Source of the DNA: Synechococcus sp. TMED19
Lineage (GTDB): Bacteria > Cyanobacteriota > Cyanobacteriia > PCC-6307 > Cyanobiaceae
Reading direction: 5' to 3'
NCBI GenBank assembly: GCA_002168155.1
Contig: NHBY01000027.1
Location: 1-43,193, forward strand
Length of the DNA: 43,193 nucleotides
The number at the start of each line of letters is the position of its first letter. Positions within the stretch are counted from its first letter, which is position 1. Positions 20,522 to 23,325 of this stretch are shown here, piece after piece. A program made the position numbers and the translations under genes. A model generated the notes under the pieces. It ran no database searches. It was not told the origin of the DNA and saw only the letters and a program-made list of their open reading frames with translations.

Positions 20522-21727
20522 ATGCCGAAGACTCTGTTCAAGGTTGATCTGACAAAGCCAATGGATCAACAGGAAATGCCTGGGCATAACCGTTGGCATC
20601 CAGATATCCCTGCAGTTGCCTCTGTAAACCCTGGAGATTCCTTTCGGATTGAGTGTAAAGACTGGACAGATGGTCAGATTAAAGACAATGACAATCCTCA
20701 AGACATCGCCAACGTCAATCTAGAAGTTGTCCATGTCCTCAGTGGGCCAATTTGGGTTAATGGTGCACAACCTGGAGACATCCTCGTTGTTGACATTCTT
20801 GAAGTCGGAGCTTTACAAGGTGATGAATGGGGCTTTACAGGAATTTTTGCTAAAGAAAATGGTGGTGGGTTCTTAACTGACCACTTTCCCCAAGCAGCTA
20901 AAGCTATATGGGATCTCAATGGTATTTATACATCCTCACGACATATCCCAGGTGTTCGCTTTGCAGGAATCACGCACCCAGGACTGATCGGCTGCGCACC
21001 ATCACATGAACTGTTGAAGGAATGGAATCGCCGTGAGACCGAACTTGTTAACACCGCCCCTGACCGGCGCACCTACGGGGCTGGCCTATCAGGTAGCGAG
21101 CCGGTACTAGCCGCATTACCAAATCCCAACAGTGCCATTCTGGGCAATGTCGCCCAGGAAGATTTCGACCGTATTGCAAATGAAGCAGCCAGAACGGTAC
21201 CTCCACGTGAGCACGGAGGAAACTGCGACATTAAGAATCTAACAAAAGGAACACGTATTTATTTTCCAGTCTATGTAGAAGGCGGAAAGTTATCAATGGG
21301 GGACATCCACTTTTCACAAGGGGATGGAGAGATTTCATTCTGTGGAGCCATTGAGATGTCTGGCTATCTAGATCTACATGTTGACATCATAAAGGGGGGA
21401 ATGGAGAAGTATGGAATGGTCAATCCTATGTTTAAAACCAGCCCCGTAGAGCCACATTACAGTGACTATCTAGTTTTTGAAGGCATTTCTGTAGACGAGT
21501 TTGAAGGGAAGCAATACTATATGGATGTCCATATCGCGTATCGAAGGGCATGCCTAAATGCAATTGAATACCTAAAGAGGTTTGGCTTTACTGGTGAACA
21601 AGCCTATCTGTTGTTGAGCTGTGCACCAGTAGAAGGTCGAATCAGTGGGATTGTCGACATTCCCAACGCTTGCTGCACACTGGCACTACCAACAGCCATT
21701 TTTGATCAAGATATTTTGCCATGCTAG
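20522..21727 (+). CDS. fmdA: formamidase, acetamidase/formamidase (FmdA/AmdA) family
   Basis: 401 aa. HNRWHPDIP, PGD.F.IEC.DWT.GQI, VH.LSGPI.V.GA.PGD.LVVDIL, WGFTGIFAKENGGGFLTDHFP and HPGLIGCAPS are colinear with my memory of Methylophilus methylotrophus FmdA. Confidence 0.88.
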   Translation: MPKTLFKVDLTKPMDQQEMPGHNRWHPDIPAVASVNPGDSFRIECKDWTDGQIKDNDNPQDIANVNLEVVHVLSGPIWVNGAQPGDILVVDILEVGALQGDEWGFTGIFAKENGGGFLTDHFPQAAKAIWDLNGIYTSSRHIPGVRFAGITHPGLIGCAPSHELLKEWNRRETELVNTAPDRRTYGAGLSGSEPVLAALPNPNSAILGNVAQEDFDRIANEAARTVPPREHGGNCDIKNLTKGTRIYFPVYVEGGKLSMGDIHFSQGDGEISFCGAIEMSGYLDLHVDIIKGGMEKYGMVNPMFKTSPVEPHYSDYLVFEGISVDEFEGKQYYMDVHIAYRRACLNAIEYLKRFGFTGEQAYLLLSCAPVEGRISGIVDIPNACCTLALPTAIFDQDILPC

Positions 21728-21784
21728 CCGCCATTAAGCACAATTCCAAGAATTACCCATTCCACCAATTAAATCTCAATCAGT

Positions 21785-22066
21785 ATGCCCATCTACGAAT
21801 ACATCTGCAGCCAGAATGACTGTGGACAATATGAGGTTTGGAGAAGCATTGACTCTCGGGATGTCAACACAGAATGTCCCAGTTGCGGGGAGAAGGGAAA
21901 GCGCATTTATTCAGCTCCAATGACTCTAACTGGCAAATTTCGGCTAAAAGTGGAATCTAAAGAGCCCAAGTTAGTGAAAAAGAGTCAGGTTCAAGATAGG
22001 AACGAAGCAAAACCCAGATTACGAGCAAGTCCAGACAGACCATGGATGCTCAACCGCGGATGCTAG
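21785..22066 (+). CDS. fmdB: FmdB-family zinc-ribbon putative regulatory protein
   Basis: The N-terminus MPIYEYICSQNDCGQYEVW....ECPSCG is the FmdB-type zinc-ribbon signature. It sits immediately after fmdA, as in characterised fmdAB loci. Confidence 0.75.
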   Translation: MPIYEYICSQNDCGQYEVWRSIDSRDVNTECPSCGEKGKRIYSAPMTLTGKFRLKVESKEPKLVKKSQVQDRNEAKPRLRASPDRPWMLNRGC

Positions 22067-22260
22067 TGAATAAACGGTAACAGGCATATCAAATCAATCA
22101 AGCTTCTTGTGCAATATACGCAGATAGTAAACTGCTGAGCTTGCATATATCGATTGATACAGACTTGATAAACACCAGAAAATGGAAACTTTAATGGTTG
22201 CTATCGATACAGGCACAATATTGGATGGGTGAACAATGGAAAAGGTTCTCATTCTCGCCA

Positions 22261-23325
22261 ATGGCAAGCACCGGAAGCGTCAGCGCTTGGGAAGAAGCAT
22301 TGCTAACAGCAATGATTCAATACCCAGTCCCTGTCATCAAAGGACCTGAGGATATCCAGACCCAGGTCGATCAGATTTGCAAATGCGTTGCCACCACAAA
22401 GGCTGGCTACCCAGATCTCGATCTCATTGTGTTCCCTGAGTATTCCACGCAGGGATTGAACACGCAGATCTGGACCTACGATGAGATGCTGCTCCGCATC
22501 GATTCACCAGAAATCGGTCGCTTCAAGCAAGCCTGTATCGACAACAAGGTCTGGGGCGTCTTTTCCTTGATGGAACAGAATGACGACCCTAGCCTGCCTC
22601 CCTTCAACACAGCAATCATCATCAATTCAGATGGTGAAATTGTTCTGCACTATCGCAAGCTGCAACCCTGGGTGCCCATTGAGCCATGGTCTCCTGGCAA
22701 CTATGGAATGCCAGTCTGTGATGGTCCTAAGGGGTCCAAGTTAGCTGTATGCATCTGTCATGACGGGATGTTCCCAGAATTGGCACGAGAAGCCGCATAC
22801 AAGGGCGCTAATGTCTACATCCGAATTTCTGGTTATTCGACTCAGGTCAACGATCAGTGGATCTGGACCAACAGAACGAATGCTTGGCAAAATCTGATGT
22901 ACACCATTTCAGTCAACTTGGCTGGATACGACAACGTCTTCTACTACTTTGGTGAAGGTACGGTCTGCAACTACGACGGTAACGTTATTCAGCAGGGCCA
23001 CCGCAATCCCTGGGAAATCGTCACTGCTGAACTCTTCCCAAGGTTGGTTGATAAAGCCCGAGAGCATTGGGCACTTGAGAACAACATCTTCAACCTCGGA
23101 TGCCGTGCTTATGTCGGCAAGCCTGGAGGCGAAAAAGAAAACTACCTTACTTGGGTCAAAGATCTTGCCAATGGTGAGTACAAACTCCCCTGGGACGACA
23201 AGATCAAAGTTAGAGATGGCTGGAAGTACTATCCAGAAGGAGTCAAGTTAGGGCCATTGCCTGCGTCGACAAACGGTCACAGTACAGCTTCCGTTCCAAA
23301 CAGCCCAGTTCCAGCACAAGTCTAG
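22261..23325 (+). CDS. amiF: formamidase AmiF-type (nitrilase/CN-hydrolase superfamily aliphatic amidase)
   Basis: Near-colinear with my memory of Helicobacter pylori AmiF. Shared motifs:
- IQ.PVP
- TKAGYP
- [11 protein letters not shown]
- [71 protein letters not shown]
- [15 protein letters not shown]
- [11 protein letters not shown]
- LENNI.NLG
- KPGGE
- YKLPW

The ATG at 22261 is preferred; alternatives are ATG 22225 and TTG 22198. Confidence 0.88.

What the first reader, a model, noticed from the sequence alone, without database searches (positions are those of the whole stretch)
20522..23325. Two evolutionarily unrelated formamidases (FmdA-type and AmiF-type) in one co-oriented module with an FmdB zinc-ribbon gene between them
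- **First enzyme:** ORF 20522-21727 carries the acetamidase/formamidase family motifs of Methylophilus FmdA.
- **Second enzyme:** ORF 22261-23325 is almost colinear with Helicobacter pylori AmiF. AmiF is a nitrilase-superfamily Glu-Lys-Cys enzyme, and this ORF has the AmiF-like CICHDG active-site context rather than the AmiE-like context.
- **Shared reaction:** characterised members of both families hydrolyse formamide to formate plus ammonium.
- **Layout:** the genes share one strand with spacers of 57 and 194 nt, and a single strong terminator follows at 23351.

Carrying two unrelated enzyme folds for nominally the same reaction next to urea uptake and urease genes is unusual. It suggests either divergent substrate ranges (other short-chain amides) or different regulation or cofactor demands. 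It would extend the nitrogen-source repertoire of a picocyanobacterium to formamide-type compounds.
Basis: partly seen in the sequence, partly recalled or inferred. Interest (0 to 1): 0.7.

Follow-up and report, generated by a model that had tools for sequence, protein, structure and literature searches.

The report
Two formamidase cassettes beside urea genes
A marine Synechococcus carries two unrelated, intact formamide-splitting enzymes next to its urea uptake and urease genes, but this pairing recurs in many relatives and other bacteria, so it is an ordinary, variable nitrogen-scavenging add-on.

Summary
ORF 20522-21727 is an FmdA-type formamidase, 21785-22066 an FmdB zinc-ribbon protein, and 22261-23325 an AmiF-type formamidase. 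AmiF keeps every catalytic and pocket residue. Spacers are 57 and 194 nt, and a strong terminator follows amiF.

The interpretation needs trimming. The pairing is not unusual. Of 70 picocyanobacterial copies of this locus (orf202-[X]-urtEDCBA):
- 41 carry fmdA-fmdB only
- 21 carry amiF-fmdA-fmdB
- 3 carry fmdA-fmdB-amiF (this window's order)
- 5 carry amiF only

The cultured strain KORDI-52 has both enzymes. So do Marinobacter, Gilvimarinus, Methylocystaceae and others, usually beside a Urt-type ABC transporter. That association was already noted for Bradyrhizobium in 2010.

The "module" is two separable cassettes. One is fmdA with fmdB, which never accompanies amiF alone. The other is amiF with its own hairpin. 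Each is preceded by a positionally conserved NtcA-like box. Both enzymes are under strong purifying selection.

Best reading: a nitrogen-regulated, accessory formamide-to-ammonium function supplied by two analogous enzymes that are gained and lost repeatedly. Activity, regulation and formamide use are inferred, not shown.

A picocyanobacteria-specific lipoprotein (orf202) always sits directly upstream and is unexplained.

Verdict: new member of a known kind, moderate-to-low interest.

The parts
19714..20265 (+). orf202: picocyanobacteria-specific lipoprotein of unknown function, always directly upstream of the formamidase gene(s). The likely start is ATG 19714; ORF-listing runs it from TTG 19657.
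   Evidence: It has a signal peptide plus a Cys lipobox and two conserved Cys residues. It has no Pfam or NCBIfam hit. It is present in all 70 anchored loci. All 4 orf202 homologues whose contigs could be looked up (8 places) have a formamidase gene directly downstream. Only 28 family representatives exist among 1.84 billion proteins. The AlphaFold2 core has pLDDT above 90 and is mostly beta; there is no PDB fold match, best E = 0.2.
20459..20499 (+). Candidate NtcA-type promoter of fmdA: box GTATTCGATAAGAC (20459-20472), a 21-nt spacer, then -10-like TTGAAT (20494-20499).
   Evidence: A GT(A)-N8/10-AC box lies at -62 to -68 from the ATG in 8 of 8 picocyanobacterial fmdA loci, followed by TTGAAT or TTCAAT. 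The surrounding sequence is otherwise diverged. This stretch is near-identical in L004. NtcA binding is inferred, not shown.
20522..21727 (+). fmdA: FmdA/AmdA-family formamidase (401 aa).
   Evidence: PF03069 scores 626 bits. NF045496 scores 669.9 against a cut-off of 500. PDB 2wkn scores 548.6 bits. It is 93-97% identical to other marine Synechococcus FmdA and about 85% to other cyanobacteria. dN is 0.02-0.05 with saturated dS.
21785..22066 (+). fmdB: FmdB-family zinc-ribbon protein (93 aa) with the C-terminal motif RPWMLNRGC. It is the partner of fmdA.
   Evidence: TIGR02605 scores 47 bits against a cut-off of 31.3, and Zn_ribbon_8 scores 43.3. The alignment shows a conserved MPxYEYxC...CPxCG ribbon and an RPWM(L/I) tail. 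It always follows fmdA and is absent where only amiF is present.
22197..22237 (+). Candidate NtcA-type promoter of amiF: box GTTGCTATCGATAC (22197-22210), a 21-nt spacer, then -10-like AACAAT (22232-22237).
   Evidence: GT-N10-AC lies at -64 to -68 in 10 of 14 picocyanobacterial amiF loci. The other 4 have GCA-N8-TAC at the same place. This is inferred only.
22261..23325 (+). amiF: nitrilase-superfamily formamidase (354 aa).
   Evidence: NF009803 scores 604.8 against a cut-off of 406, and the AmiE model falls below its cut-off. PDB 5g3o and 2dyu score 508 and 495 bits. E60, K133, C166, E141, D168, W137 and Y192 are all present. dN/dS is 0.011 against L004.
23348..23383 (+). Intrinsic terminator of amiF (GC-rich hairpin plus UUUUUAUU).
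   Evidence: It folds at -24.3 kcal/mol, z = -4.26. A hairpin also follows amiF in 5 of 5 amiF-fmdA-fmdB loci; those of L019 and L164 share a GCCCGG(A/G)G core with the window's.
23470..23510 (-). Convergent terminator of the urt operon.
   Evidence: It folds at -18.6 kcal/mol, z = -4.31.
23544..28853 (-). urtEDCBA urea-type ABC transporter. It is the likely, but untested, importer for formamide as well as urea.
   Evidence: All five subunits pass their TIGR equivalog cut-offs. AmiF sits next to Urt-like ABC operons in about 39 non-cyanobacterial loci. The AmiF-linked UrtA-like proteins of Marinobacter and Planctomycetota also pass TIGR03407. A perfect NtcA box lies at 28885-28898.

Best explanation
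This stretch is an accessory, nitrogen-scavenging "formamide islet" in the urea-utilisation locus of a marine Synechococcus.

**Two self-contained cassettes**
- fmdA-fmdB encodes an FmdA/AmdA-family formamidase and its dedicated zinc-ribbon partner.
- amiF encodes a nitrilase-superfamily Glu-Lys-Cys formamidase with the narrow Trp137/Tyr192 pocket.
- Both enzymes are cytoplasmic and convert formamide to formate plus ammonium.
- Each cassette has its own NtcA-like upstream box. amiF also has its own terminator hairpin.
- The likely behaviour is induction under nitrogen shortage, together with the neighbouring NtcA-boxed urt and ure genes. The Urt-type ABC transporter, or simple diffusion, would deliver the substrate.

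**How the pair arose**
- fmdA-fmdB is the widespread resident at this locus in picocyanobacteria.
- amiF was added in marine lineages, upstream of fmdA in most and downstream of fmdB in this window's subclade.
- Either cassette has since been lost repeatedly.
- Carrying both is therefore one state of an ongoing exchange between two analogous, largely interchangeable enzymes.

**What is shown and what is inferred**
- Shown: gene identities, residues, layout, terminator, comparative distribution and purifying selection.
- Inferred: enzyme activity in this organism, NtcA control, the transport route and functional equivalence.
For: - **Family placement and residues.**
- **Locus variants.** Among 70 loci: 41 fmdA-fmdB, 21 amiF-fmdA-fmdB, 3 fmdA-fmdB-amiF and 5 amiF only.
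- **Interspersed variants.** All four variants are mixed within the marine clade of a UrtE+UrtD tree. High-GC clades are fmdA-fmdB only.
- **This window's order.** It is confined to one subclade, which also holds amiF-only genomes (MIT S9507, MIT S9503, CUG2217).
- **AmiF lineages.** AmiF from the two arrangements forms distinct groups, each with about 80% bootstrap support.
- **fmdB linkage.** fmdB co-occurs only with fmdA.
- **Upstream boxes.** NtcA-like boxes are positionally conserved, in 8 of 8 fmdA loci and 10 of 14 amiF loci.
- **Downstream hairpins.** A hairpin follows amiF in the window and in 5 of 5 loci of the other order.
- **Selection.** Both enzymes are under strong purifying selection.
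- **Neighbouring NtcA boxes.** Perfect boxes lie at urtA and at ureE/ureD; 6 matches are found in the window against 1.24 expected.
- **Transporter link.** AmiF is linked to Urt-like ABC operons across phyla. The same inference was made for Bradyrhizobium (PMC3098086), and M. methylotrophus fmdCABDEF encodes amide/urea uptake (PMC10781810).
- **Low-N expression elsewhere.** Formamidase is up-regulated at low nitrogen in many eukaryotic phytoplankton (PMC9599627).
Against: - No activity, expression or growth data exist for any picocyanobacterial formamidase in the literature I could search.
- The two boxes are imperfect (GTA..GAC and GTT..TAC), and the degenerate motif is common by chance.
- Sampling was biased: genome loci were picked by AmiF and metagenome loci by FmdA. 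The variant frequencies are therefore not population frequencies.
- The trees are neighbour-joining on few proteins, and recombination could mimic repeated loss.
- Strong purifying selection on both genes where they co-occur is also what one expects if each does something the other cannot.
- Published kinetics differ sharply. Km is 32-108 mM for AmiF enzymes and 2.1 mM for M. methylotrophus FmdA, which also has a broader amide range.
Confidence: 0.7

Rival explanations
1. Division of labour. Both enzymes are kept because they are not equivalent. FmdA would be the higher-affinity, broader short-chain-amide (or lactam) hydrolase. AmiF would be the low-affinity, high-turnover, strictly formamide-specific enzyme. 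Alternatively they differ in cofactor demand: FmdA-family enzymes may be metal-dependent, while AmiF is thiol-based.
For: - Published Km is 2.1 mM for M. methylotrophus FmdA, which also hydrolyses acetamide, propionamide, butyramide and acrylamide. Km is 32-108 mM for AmiF enzymes, which are restricted to formamide (plus or minus acetamide).
- The closest solved FmdA-type structure, 2wkn, is deposited only as 'formamidase'. I recall it as the Delftia acidovorans gamma-lactamase, but this is from memory and unchecked.
- The AmiF pocket residues W137 and Y192 are conserved.
- Both genes are under strong purifying selection where they co-occur.
- Marinobacter keeps three amidases (amiE, amiF, fmdA) side by side.
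Against: - Lineages with only fmdA-fmdB or only amiF occur at the same locus, interspersed with two-enzyme lineages. Neither enzyme is therefore indispensable.
- There are no kinetic data for cyanobacterial enzymes.
- Metal dependence of FmdA is from memory and was not tested here.
Confidence: 0.3
2. Internal recycling or detoxification. The enzymes mainly remove formamide made inside the cell, from histidine or cyanide catabolism, recovering nitrogen during starvation or detoxifying it. They would not exploit external formamide, and the position beside urt would be incidental.
For: - A phytoplankton study notes that formamide arises from histidine and cyanide catabolism, and that the source (intracellular or extracellular) of the substrate is unknown (PMC9599627).
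- No formamide-specific transporter is present.
- Formamide is small and uncharged (general chemistry).
Against: - AmiF and FmdA are recurrently adjacent to Urt-type ABC importers in many phyla.
- The position directly abutting urtE is conserved in all 70 picocyanobacterial loci.
- No histidine-utilisation or cyanide-hydratase genes appeared among the window ORFs I annotated. ORFs before about 16 kb and after about 39 kb were not annotated.
Confidence: 0.2
3. Single operon. This is the first reader's implied layout: fmdA-fmdB-amiF is one transcription unit, with FmdB as a shared regulator of both formamidases.
For: - The genes are co-oriented.
- No hairpin lies in either internal spacer, and one strong terminator follows amiF.
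- FmdB was proposed as a positive regulator in M. methylotrophus.
Against: - The order is amiF-fmdA-fmdB in 21 of 24 two-enzyme loci, and a hairpin separates amiF from fmdA in the five such loci folded.
- amiF-only genomes lack fmdB.
- amiF has its own conserved upstream box.
- Read-through from fmdB into amiF in this window remains possible, in addition to an amiF promoter.
Confidence: 0.15

Closest known systems
Methylophilus methylotrophus fmdCABDEF (formamidase FmdA, putative regulator FmdB, porin FmdC, amide/urea ABC uptake FmdDEF)
   Same: It has an FmdA-type formamidase followed by an FmdB zinc-ribbon gene. [quoted passage not shown] The window's FmdA passes the FmdA equivalog model.
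   Different: - The window has no porin gene.
- The transporter here is the bona fide cyanobacterial urtABCDE, on the opposite strand and next to urease genes.
- An additional nitrilase-type formamidase is present.
- Regulation is probably through NtcA rather than the Ntr system.
- The C-terminal tail of FmdB is RPWMLNRGC.
Helicobacter pylori and Bacillus cereus AmiF (nitrilase-superfamily formamidase; PDB 2dyu, 5g3o)
   Same: The proteins are colinear over about 325 residues and score 495-508 bits. E60, K133, C166, E141, D168, W137 and Y192 are all conserved. In H. pylori the enzyme is also part of an ammonia-producing set alongside urease.
   Different: - The window protein has a low-complexity C-terminal tail of about 25 aa.
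- The host is a phototroph, so the likely purpose is nitrogen nutrition, not acid resistance.
- It is paired with an FmdA-type enzyme, not with the paralogue AmiE.
Proteobacterial mixed amidase clusters: Bradyrhizobium japonicum blr0968-0973, Pseudomonas veronii amiE-fmdA-fmdB-urtABCDE, Marinobacter urtABCDE-amiE-amiF-fmdA-fmdB
   Same: One PF00795 amidase plus one PF03069 amidase (plus fmdB) sit beside a five-gene Urt-type ABC transporter (PMC3098086; PMC13209695; L028). In Marinobacter the AmiF is 89% identical to the window's.
   Different: - The Bradyrhizobium and Pseudomonas PF00795 genes are annotated AmiE (aliphatic amidase), not AmiF.
- In those clusters the transporter is a second, dedicated Urt paralogue on the same strand.
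- No urease genes were reported or seen next to those clusters.
Synechococcus sp. KORDI-52 (CP006271) and other picocyanobacterial copies of the same locus
   Same: The locus is the same: pabC ... DUF1830, DUF4278, orf202, formamidase gene(s), urtEDCBA, ure. KORDI-52 carries both enzymes.
   Different: The order in KORDI-52 and most others is amiF-fmdA-fmdB. The window's fmdA-fmdB-amiF order was seen in only 4 other contigs (L004, L084, L099, L104).

Membership tests
AmiF formamidase (nitrilase superfamily, EC 3.5.1.49) | CN_hydrolase fold, with a score above the curated AmiF equivalog cut-off and below the AmiE cut-off | tested here: met
   PF00795 scores 106 bits. NF009803 scores 604.8 against a cut-off of 406. 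The AmiE model NF009802 scores 235 against a cut-off of 427.
AmiF formamidase (nitrilase superfamily, EC 3.5.1.49) | Glu60-Lys133-Cys166 triad plus Glu141 and Asp168 (H. pylori numbering) | tested here: met
   All are present at colinear positions, and C166 lies in CICHDG.
AmiF formamidase (nitrilase superfamily, EC 3.5.1.49) | Small substrate pocket walled by Trp137 and Tyr192, which restricts the enzyme to formamide | tested here: met
   W137 and Y192 are present. Their role is taken from Hung et al. 2007 as cited in PMC10781810.
AmiF formamidase (nitrilase superfamily, EC 3.5.1.49) | Hydrolysis of formamide but not of longer amides or urea | not testable with these tools
   This needs an enzyme assay.
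FmdA formamidase (acetamidase/formamidase family PF03069) | Full-length PF03069 domain and a score above the FmdA equivalog cut-off | tested here: met
   PF03069 scores 626 bits over profile positions 1-373 of 373. NF045496 scores 669.9 against a cut-off of 500.
FmdA formamidase (acetamidase/formamidase family PF03069) | Most conserved family block (HGGN-D ... GD-H ... GDGE), shared with distant solved homologues | tested here: met
   EHGGNCD and MGDIHFSQGDGEI align with PDB 3tkk and 2wkn. The catalytic role of these residues was not verified here.
FmdA formamidase (acetamidase/formamidase family PF03069) | fmdB zinc-ribbon gene immediately downstream | tested here: met
   fmdB lies 57 nt downstream. 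The same is true in every fmdA locus examined in which fmdB could be scored.
FmdA formamidase (acetamidase/formamidase family PF03069) | Formamidase activity, substrate range and metal content | not testable with these tools
   This needs biochemistry.
FmdB family zinc-ribbon protein (TIGR02605) | N-terminal CxxC...CxxC ribbon scoring above the cut-off | tested here: met
   TIGR02605 scores 47 bits against a cut-off of 31.3. The conserved Cys pairs are visible in the alignment.
FmdB family zinc-ribbon protein (TIGR02605) | Positive regulator of formamidase expression | not testable with these tools
   This is only proposed for M. methylotrophus. Here the strict linkage of fmdB to fmdA, and never to amiF alone, is compatible with either a regulator or a maturation partner.
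RPWMISH domain protein (NF053663) | Score above 120 bits over the whole model | tested here: not met
   The score is 43.4 bits and only the N-terminal ribbon matched. The tail reads RPWMLNRGC in place of RPWMISH.
NtcA-activated promoter (cyanobacterial class II type) | GTA-N8-TAC about 22 nt upstream of a TAN3T -10 box | tested here: inconclusive
   fmdA has GTATTCGATAAGAC, a 21-nt spacer, then TTGAAT. amiF has GTTGCTATCGATAC, a 21-nt spacer, then AACAAT. Both boxes are imperfect but positionally conserved across loci. No binding or transcription-start data exist.
UrtABCDE urea ABC transporter | All five subunits score above their equivalog cut-offs and lie adjacent to urease genes | tested here: met
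   Scores against cut-offs: UrtA 587.9/492.75, UrtB 352.3/250.3, UrtC 442.2/296.2, UrtD 353.5/304.1, UrtE 314.8/285.8. ureG, ureF, ureE, ureD, ureA, ureB and ureC follow.

The most novel reading that the evidence does not exclude
Formamide, or a close analogue, is an overlooked and widely used nitrogen source for picocyanobacteria.

- fmdA-fmdB beside urt would be near-universal in the Cyanobium and Synechococcus lineages.
- Marine lineages would be in the middle of a non-orthologous displacement of FmdA/FmdB by AmiF, driven by a niche variable such as trace-metal supply or substrate concentration.
- The lineage-specific lipoprotein orf202 has a fold with no PDB match and sits directly upstream of a formamidase gene in every locus seen. 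It would be a new extracytoplasmic component of the pathway, for example capturing or generating the substrate.
Probability: 0.25. Interest if true: 0.6.

Novelty: new member of a known kind. Interest (0 to 1): 0.35.

Why it matters
If the enzymes work as predicted, many marine and freshwater picocyanobacteria can draw ammonium from formamide, a compound almost never considered in aquatic nitrogen budgets.

- **Abundance.** The gene clusters are common in ocean metagenomes. The 90%-identity clusters nearest the window proteins hold about 1,500-1,700 member sequences each.
- **A natural experiment.** The locus offers four states of the same site in related strains: FmdA/B only, AmiF only, and both in two orders. 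Several are in culture (KORDI-52, RSCCF101, the MIT S strains). This allows a test of whether two analogous enzymes are redundant or complementary.
- **Annotation.** "Urea ABC transporter" calls cannot distinguish urea from amide uptake.

None of this is conceptually new. The enzymes, the FmdA-FmdB pairing and the amidase/Urt association are all established.

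Tried and rejected
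1. **An NtcA-driven four-gene operon.** I first read the perfect NtcA box at 19566-19579, conserved in all 14 loci, as the promoter of an orf202-fmdA-fmdB-amiF operon. Rfam then showed a Glutamine-II riboswitch at 19504-19562 on the minus strand, 4 nt from the box, leading a DUF4278 gene. The box more likely belongs to that divergent gene. Any role for orf202 is undecided.

2. **Recent transfer of amiF from Proteobacteria.** The 83-84% identity to Photorhabdus and Legionella suggested this. I rejected it as an inference. AmiF is 86-93% identical across many phyla. Bootstraps do not resolve any donor or picocyanobacterial monophyly.

3. **A recent low-GC genomic island in this genome.** The GC profile suggested this, but the GC3 trough over orf202 to urtA is shared by nearly all picocyanobacterial copies.

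4. **Structured RNA in the spacers.** Rfam at a permissive threshold found nothing between 19600 and 23600.

5. **Terminator scan.** The consensus scan missed the amiF terminator. Folding confirmed it.

6. **Function of orf202.** Pfam and NCBIfam gave no hit. The profile search found only a tiny family. Foldseek against the PDB found no match.

7. **Literature.** Eight searches found no paper on formamidases in marine picocyanobacteria. Absence from this library is not proof of absence.

8. **Pseudogenisation of one of the two enzymes.** Both ORFs are intact and under strong purifying selection.

Full report

Yes. The ORF listing gives three co-oriented ORFs at 20522-21727, 21785-22066 and 22198/22261-23325.

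- The first ORF matches Pfam FmdA_AmdA over the whole profile (626 bits). It also matches the NCBIfam equivalog for formamidase FmdA (669.9 bits, cut-off 500). It aligns end to end with PDB 2wkn "formamidase" (548.6 bits).
- The second ORF is an FmdB-family zinc ribbon (TIGR02605, 47 bits, cut-off 31.3).
- The third ORF passes the AmiF equivalog (604.8 bits, cut-off 406) and fails the AmiE one (235 bits, cut-off 427). It is colinear with the crystallised AmiF of B. cereus and H. pylori (508 and 495 bits). P. aeruginosa AmiE scores 189 bits.
- The third ORF carries Glu60, Lys133, Cys166 (in CICHDG), Glu141 and Asp168. It also carries the pocket residues Trp137 and Tyr192.
- Homologues show that ATG 22261 is the start.
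- The spacers are 57 and 194 nt.
- The hairpin after amiF folds at -24.3 kcal/mol (z = -4.3) and is followed by UUUUUAUU. A second, convergent terminator closes the urt operon.
- Neither internal spacer contains a hairpin or any Rfam element.

**2. Surroundings**

- Downstream on the minus strand lie urtEDCBA. All five subunits score above their equivalog cut-offs.
- Next come ureG, a TauE/SafE permease, ureF and ureE. ureD, ureA, ureB and ureC follow on the plus strand.
- Upstream lie queC, pabB, pabC, a DUF1830 gene and a minus-strand DUF4278 gene. The DUF4278 gene is led by a Glutamine-II riboswitch (64.8 bits, gathering score 33) with a perfect NtcA box 4 nt upstream.
- orf202 follows these. 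It is a lipoprotein with no family assignment.
- Perfect NtcA boxes also precede urtA and sit between ureE and ureD. The window has 6 matches against 1.24 expected.

The region is therefore a nitrogen-control hub.

**3. Comparative picture**

I ran two scans and re-annotated the results with tblastn.
- Scanning one genome per species with AmiF returned 80 loci.
- Scanning metagenome contigs with FmdA returned another 80.
- tblastn re-annotation is.

Picocyanobacteria share one locus: pabC ... orf202-[X]-urtEDCBA-ureG. Among the 70 copies that contain both anchors, X takes four forms:

| X | Copies |
|---|---|
| fmdA-fmdB | 41 |
| amiF-fmdA-fmdB | 21 |
| fmdA-fmdB-amiF | 3 (the window, L099, L104) |
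| amiF alone | 5 |

- Two truncated contigs (L004, L084) also show the window's order.
- The sampling is biased by the queries, so these counts are not population frequencies.
- The complete genome of the cultured strain KORDI-52 carries orf202-amiF-fmdA-fmdB-urtE. RSCCF101 carries orf202-fmdA-fmdB-urtE.

A neighbour-joining tree of UrtE+UrtD shows how the variants are distributed.
- The high-GC, Cyanobium-like clades have only fmdA-fmdB.
- A marine clade contains all four states, interspersed.
- The window's order is confined to one subclade. That subclade also holds the amiF-only genomes MIT S9507, MIT S9503 and CUG2217.

Other comparative results:
- AmiF sequences from the two arrangements fall into separate groups, each with about 80% bootstrap support. 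Deeper relationships, including picocyanobacterial monophyly, are unresolved.
- Both enzymes are under strong purifying selection. dN is 0.01-0.08 with saturated dS, and dN/dS is 0.011 for amiF against L004.

**4. Two cassettes, not one operon**

- *fmdB belongs with fmdA.* fmdB follows fmdA wherever it could be scored and is missing wherever amiF stands alone. Its ribbon and its RPWM(L/I) tail are conserved from picocyanobacteria to other cyanobacteria and Marinobacter.
- *fmdA has its own upstream box.* A GTA-N8-NAC box sits at -62 to -68 in 8 of 8 loci. It is followed after about 21 nt by TTGAAT or TTCAAT, and the flanking sequence is otherwise diverged.
- *amiF has its own upstream box.* GT-N10-AC sits at -64 to -68 in 10 of 14 loci, with GCA-N8-TAC at the same place in the rest. 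An nAnnAT hexamer follows 21 nt downstream.
- *amiF has its own hairpin.* In the five amiF-fmdA-fmdB loci I folded, a GC-rich hairpin separates amiF from fmdA. Those of L019 and L164 share a GCCCGG(A/G)G core with the window's terminator.

So amiF moves as promoter, gene and hairpin together. fmdA-fmdB moves as promoter and two genes. In this window, read-through from fmdB into amiF is possible but not required. NtcA control is an inference from motif geometry and conservation. The boxes are imperfect and nothing has been measured.

**5. Outside cyanobacteria**

- AmiF is strikingly conserved, at 86-93% identity from Planctomycetota to Enterobacteriaceae.
- In about 39 of the non-cyanobacterial loci it lies beside a Urt-like five-gene ABC operon.
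- The binding proteins of two such operons, from Marinobacter and Planctomycetota, pass the UrtA model.
- AmiF and FmdA are adjacent in Marinobacter, Gilvimarinus, Methylocystaceae, a Planctomycetota MAG and a Rhodobacteraceae MAG.
- Marinobacter lutaoensis has urtABCDE-amiE-amiF-fmdA-fmdB.
- The literature already records the pattern:
  - Bradyrhizobium blr0968-0973 is a Urt-like ABC cluster plus PF03069 plus PF00795. It was interpreted in 2010 as an amide importer (PMC3098086).
  - Pseudomonas veronii has amiE-fmdA-fmdB-urtABCDE, and the strain grows on acetamide and formamide (PMC13209695).
  - M. methylotrophus fmdCABDEF is the prototype (PMC10781810).

**6. Mechanism proposed**

- *Shown.* Two intact, conserved, cytoplasmic formamidase orthologues sit in a nitrogen-scavenging locus.
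- *From established knowledge of the families.*
  - AmiF uses Cys166 as nucleophile, with Glu60 and Lys133. Its pocket admits only formamide.
  - FmdA of M. methylotrophus hydrolyses formamide with a Km of 2.1 mM, and also C2-C4 amides.
  - AmiF enzymes have a Km of 32-108 mM but higher specific activity (PMC10781810).
- *Inferred.*
  - Both cassettes are induced by nitrogen shortage through NtcA.
  - Formamide enters by Urt or by diffusion.
  - Ammonium feeds GS-GOGAT.
  - The enzymes are largely interchangeable, which explains the reciprocal presence and absence at one locus.
- *Main rival.* The two enzymes may be complementary (affinity against capacity, or substrate breadth). This is not excluded and may hold alongside the redundancy model.
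- *Substrate source.* Formamide could be external or internal, from histidine or cyanide catabolism. Its source is unknown even for eukaryotic phytoplankton, in which formamidase is a consistent low-nitrogen marker (PMC9599627).

**7. Novelty and verdict**

- The enzymes, the FmdA-FmdB couple and the amidase/Urt association are all known.
- The two-enzyme state exists in public genomes of cultured strains.
- I found no paper that discusses formamidases in marine picocyanobacteria. The locus polymorphism, the cassette structure and the obligate orf202 neighbour appear undescribed.
- The finding is a correct observation of a new member of a known kind.
- It is interesting mainly as a ready-made test of enzyme redundancy and as a pointer to formamide as a possible nitrogen source. 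It is not a surprising system.

Noticed in passing
window 19504-19579 and 19237-19485 (- strand): A Glutamine-II riboswitch (RF01704, 64.8 bits against a gathering score of 33) leads a small DUF4278 gene (MTTLIFRGHQYEP...TYRGVHY). A perfect palindromic NtcA box, GTAGCGACCGCTAC, lies 4 nt upstream of the riboswitch 5' end. The box is conserved in all 14 picocyanobacterial loci checked. This layout looks like an NtcA-repressed, glutamine-sensing gifB-type unit placed back to back with orf202.
   Followed up: partly
window 19714-20265 (+): orf202 is a lipoprotein family restricted to picocyanobacteria, with 28 representatives among 1.84 billion proteins. It has two conserved Cys residues and a confident, mostly beta AlphaFold model with no PDB fold match. 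It lies directly upstream of a formamidase gene (fmdA or amiF) in every locus seen. Its function is unknown.
   Followed up: yes
window ~18.8-29.5 kb; loci L002-L153: GC3 drops from about 0.65-0.9 in pabB/pabC to about 0.35-0.6 across orf202, the formamidase genes and urtEDCB(A). The trough appears in nearly all picocyanobacterial lineages, not only this genome. amiF and urtA are intermediate. Possible causes are frequent exchange of this region or selection on nitrogen-stress genes; neither was resolved.
   Followed up: partly
loci L004-L083: AmiF is unusually conserved across phyla, at 86-93% amino-acid identity between cyanobacteria, Planctomycetota, Verrucomicrobiota, Desulfobacterota and Alpha-, Beta- and Gammaproteobacteria. 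Even the N-terminus ([10 protein letters not shown]) is shared with Marinobacter. This suggests very strong constraint, rampant transfer, or both.
   Followed up: partly
L028 (Marinobacter lutaoensis) 3657-12763: Three amidase genes lie in a row after a Urt-like ABC operon: amiE (IICDDGNYPE), amiF and fmdA, followed by an fmdB ending in RPWMISH.
   Followed up: partly
window 29622-30395 (+): A TauE/SafE-family permease gene (108 bits) is inserted between ureG and ureF, on the strand opposite to both. Its role in the urease cluster is unknown.
   Followed up: no
window 34274-34560 (-): Rfam 5_ureB_sRNA (RF02514) matches at 134 bits, antisense inside ureC. That family is an antisense RNA to the H. 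pylori urease gene. The match probably reflects conservation of the urease coding sequence and not a real sRNA here.
   Followed up: no
window 37130-37143 and 37248-38687 (+): A perfect NtcA box, GTAGCAACGTTTAC, lies about 105 nt upstream of a circularly permuted ATP-grasp gene (PF14403, 535 bits). This is a possible further member of the nitrogen regulon.
   Followed up: no
L156, L158, L159 (other cyanobacteria): Outside picocyanobacteria, fmdA-fmdB sits next to a Urt paralogue. In L156 the binding protein falls below the UrtA cut-off (426 against 492.75). This is consistent with a dedicated amide transporter of the FmdDEF type.
   Followed up: partly
L001, L009, L017, L018, L027, L031, L036: High-GC Cyanobium-type genomes carry amiF alone in a different genomic context. 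It appears as a single gene whose GC is 8-15 points below that of its flanks, which suggests an isolated insertion.
   Followed up: no
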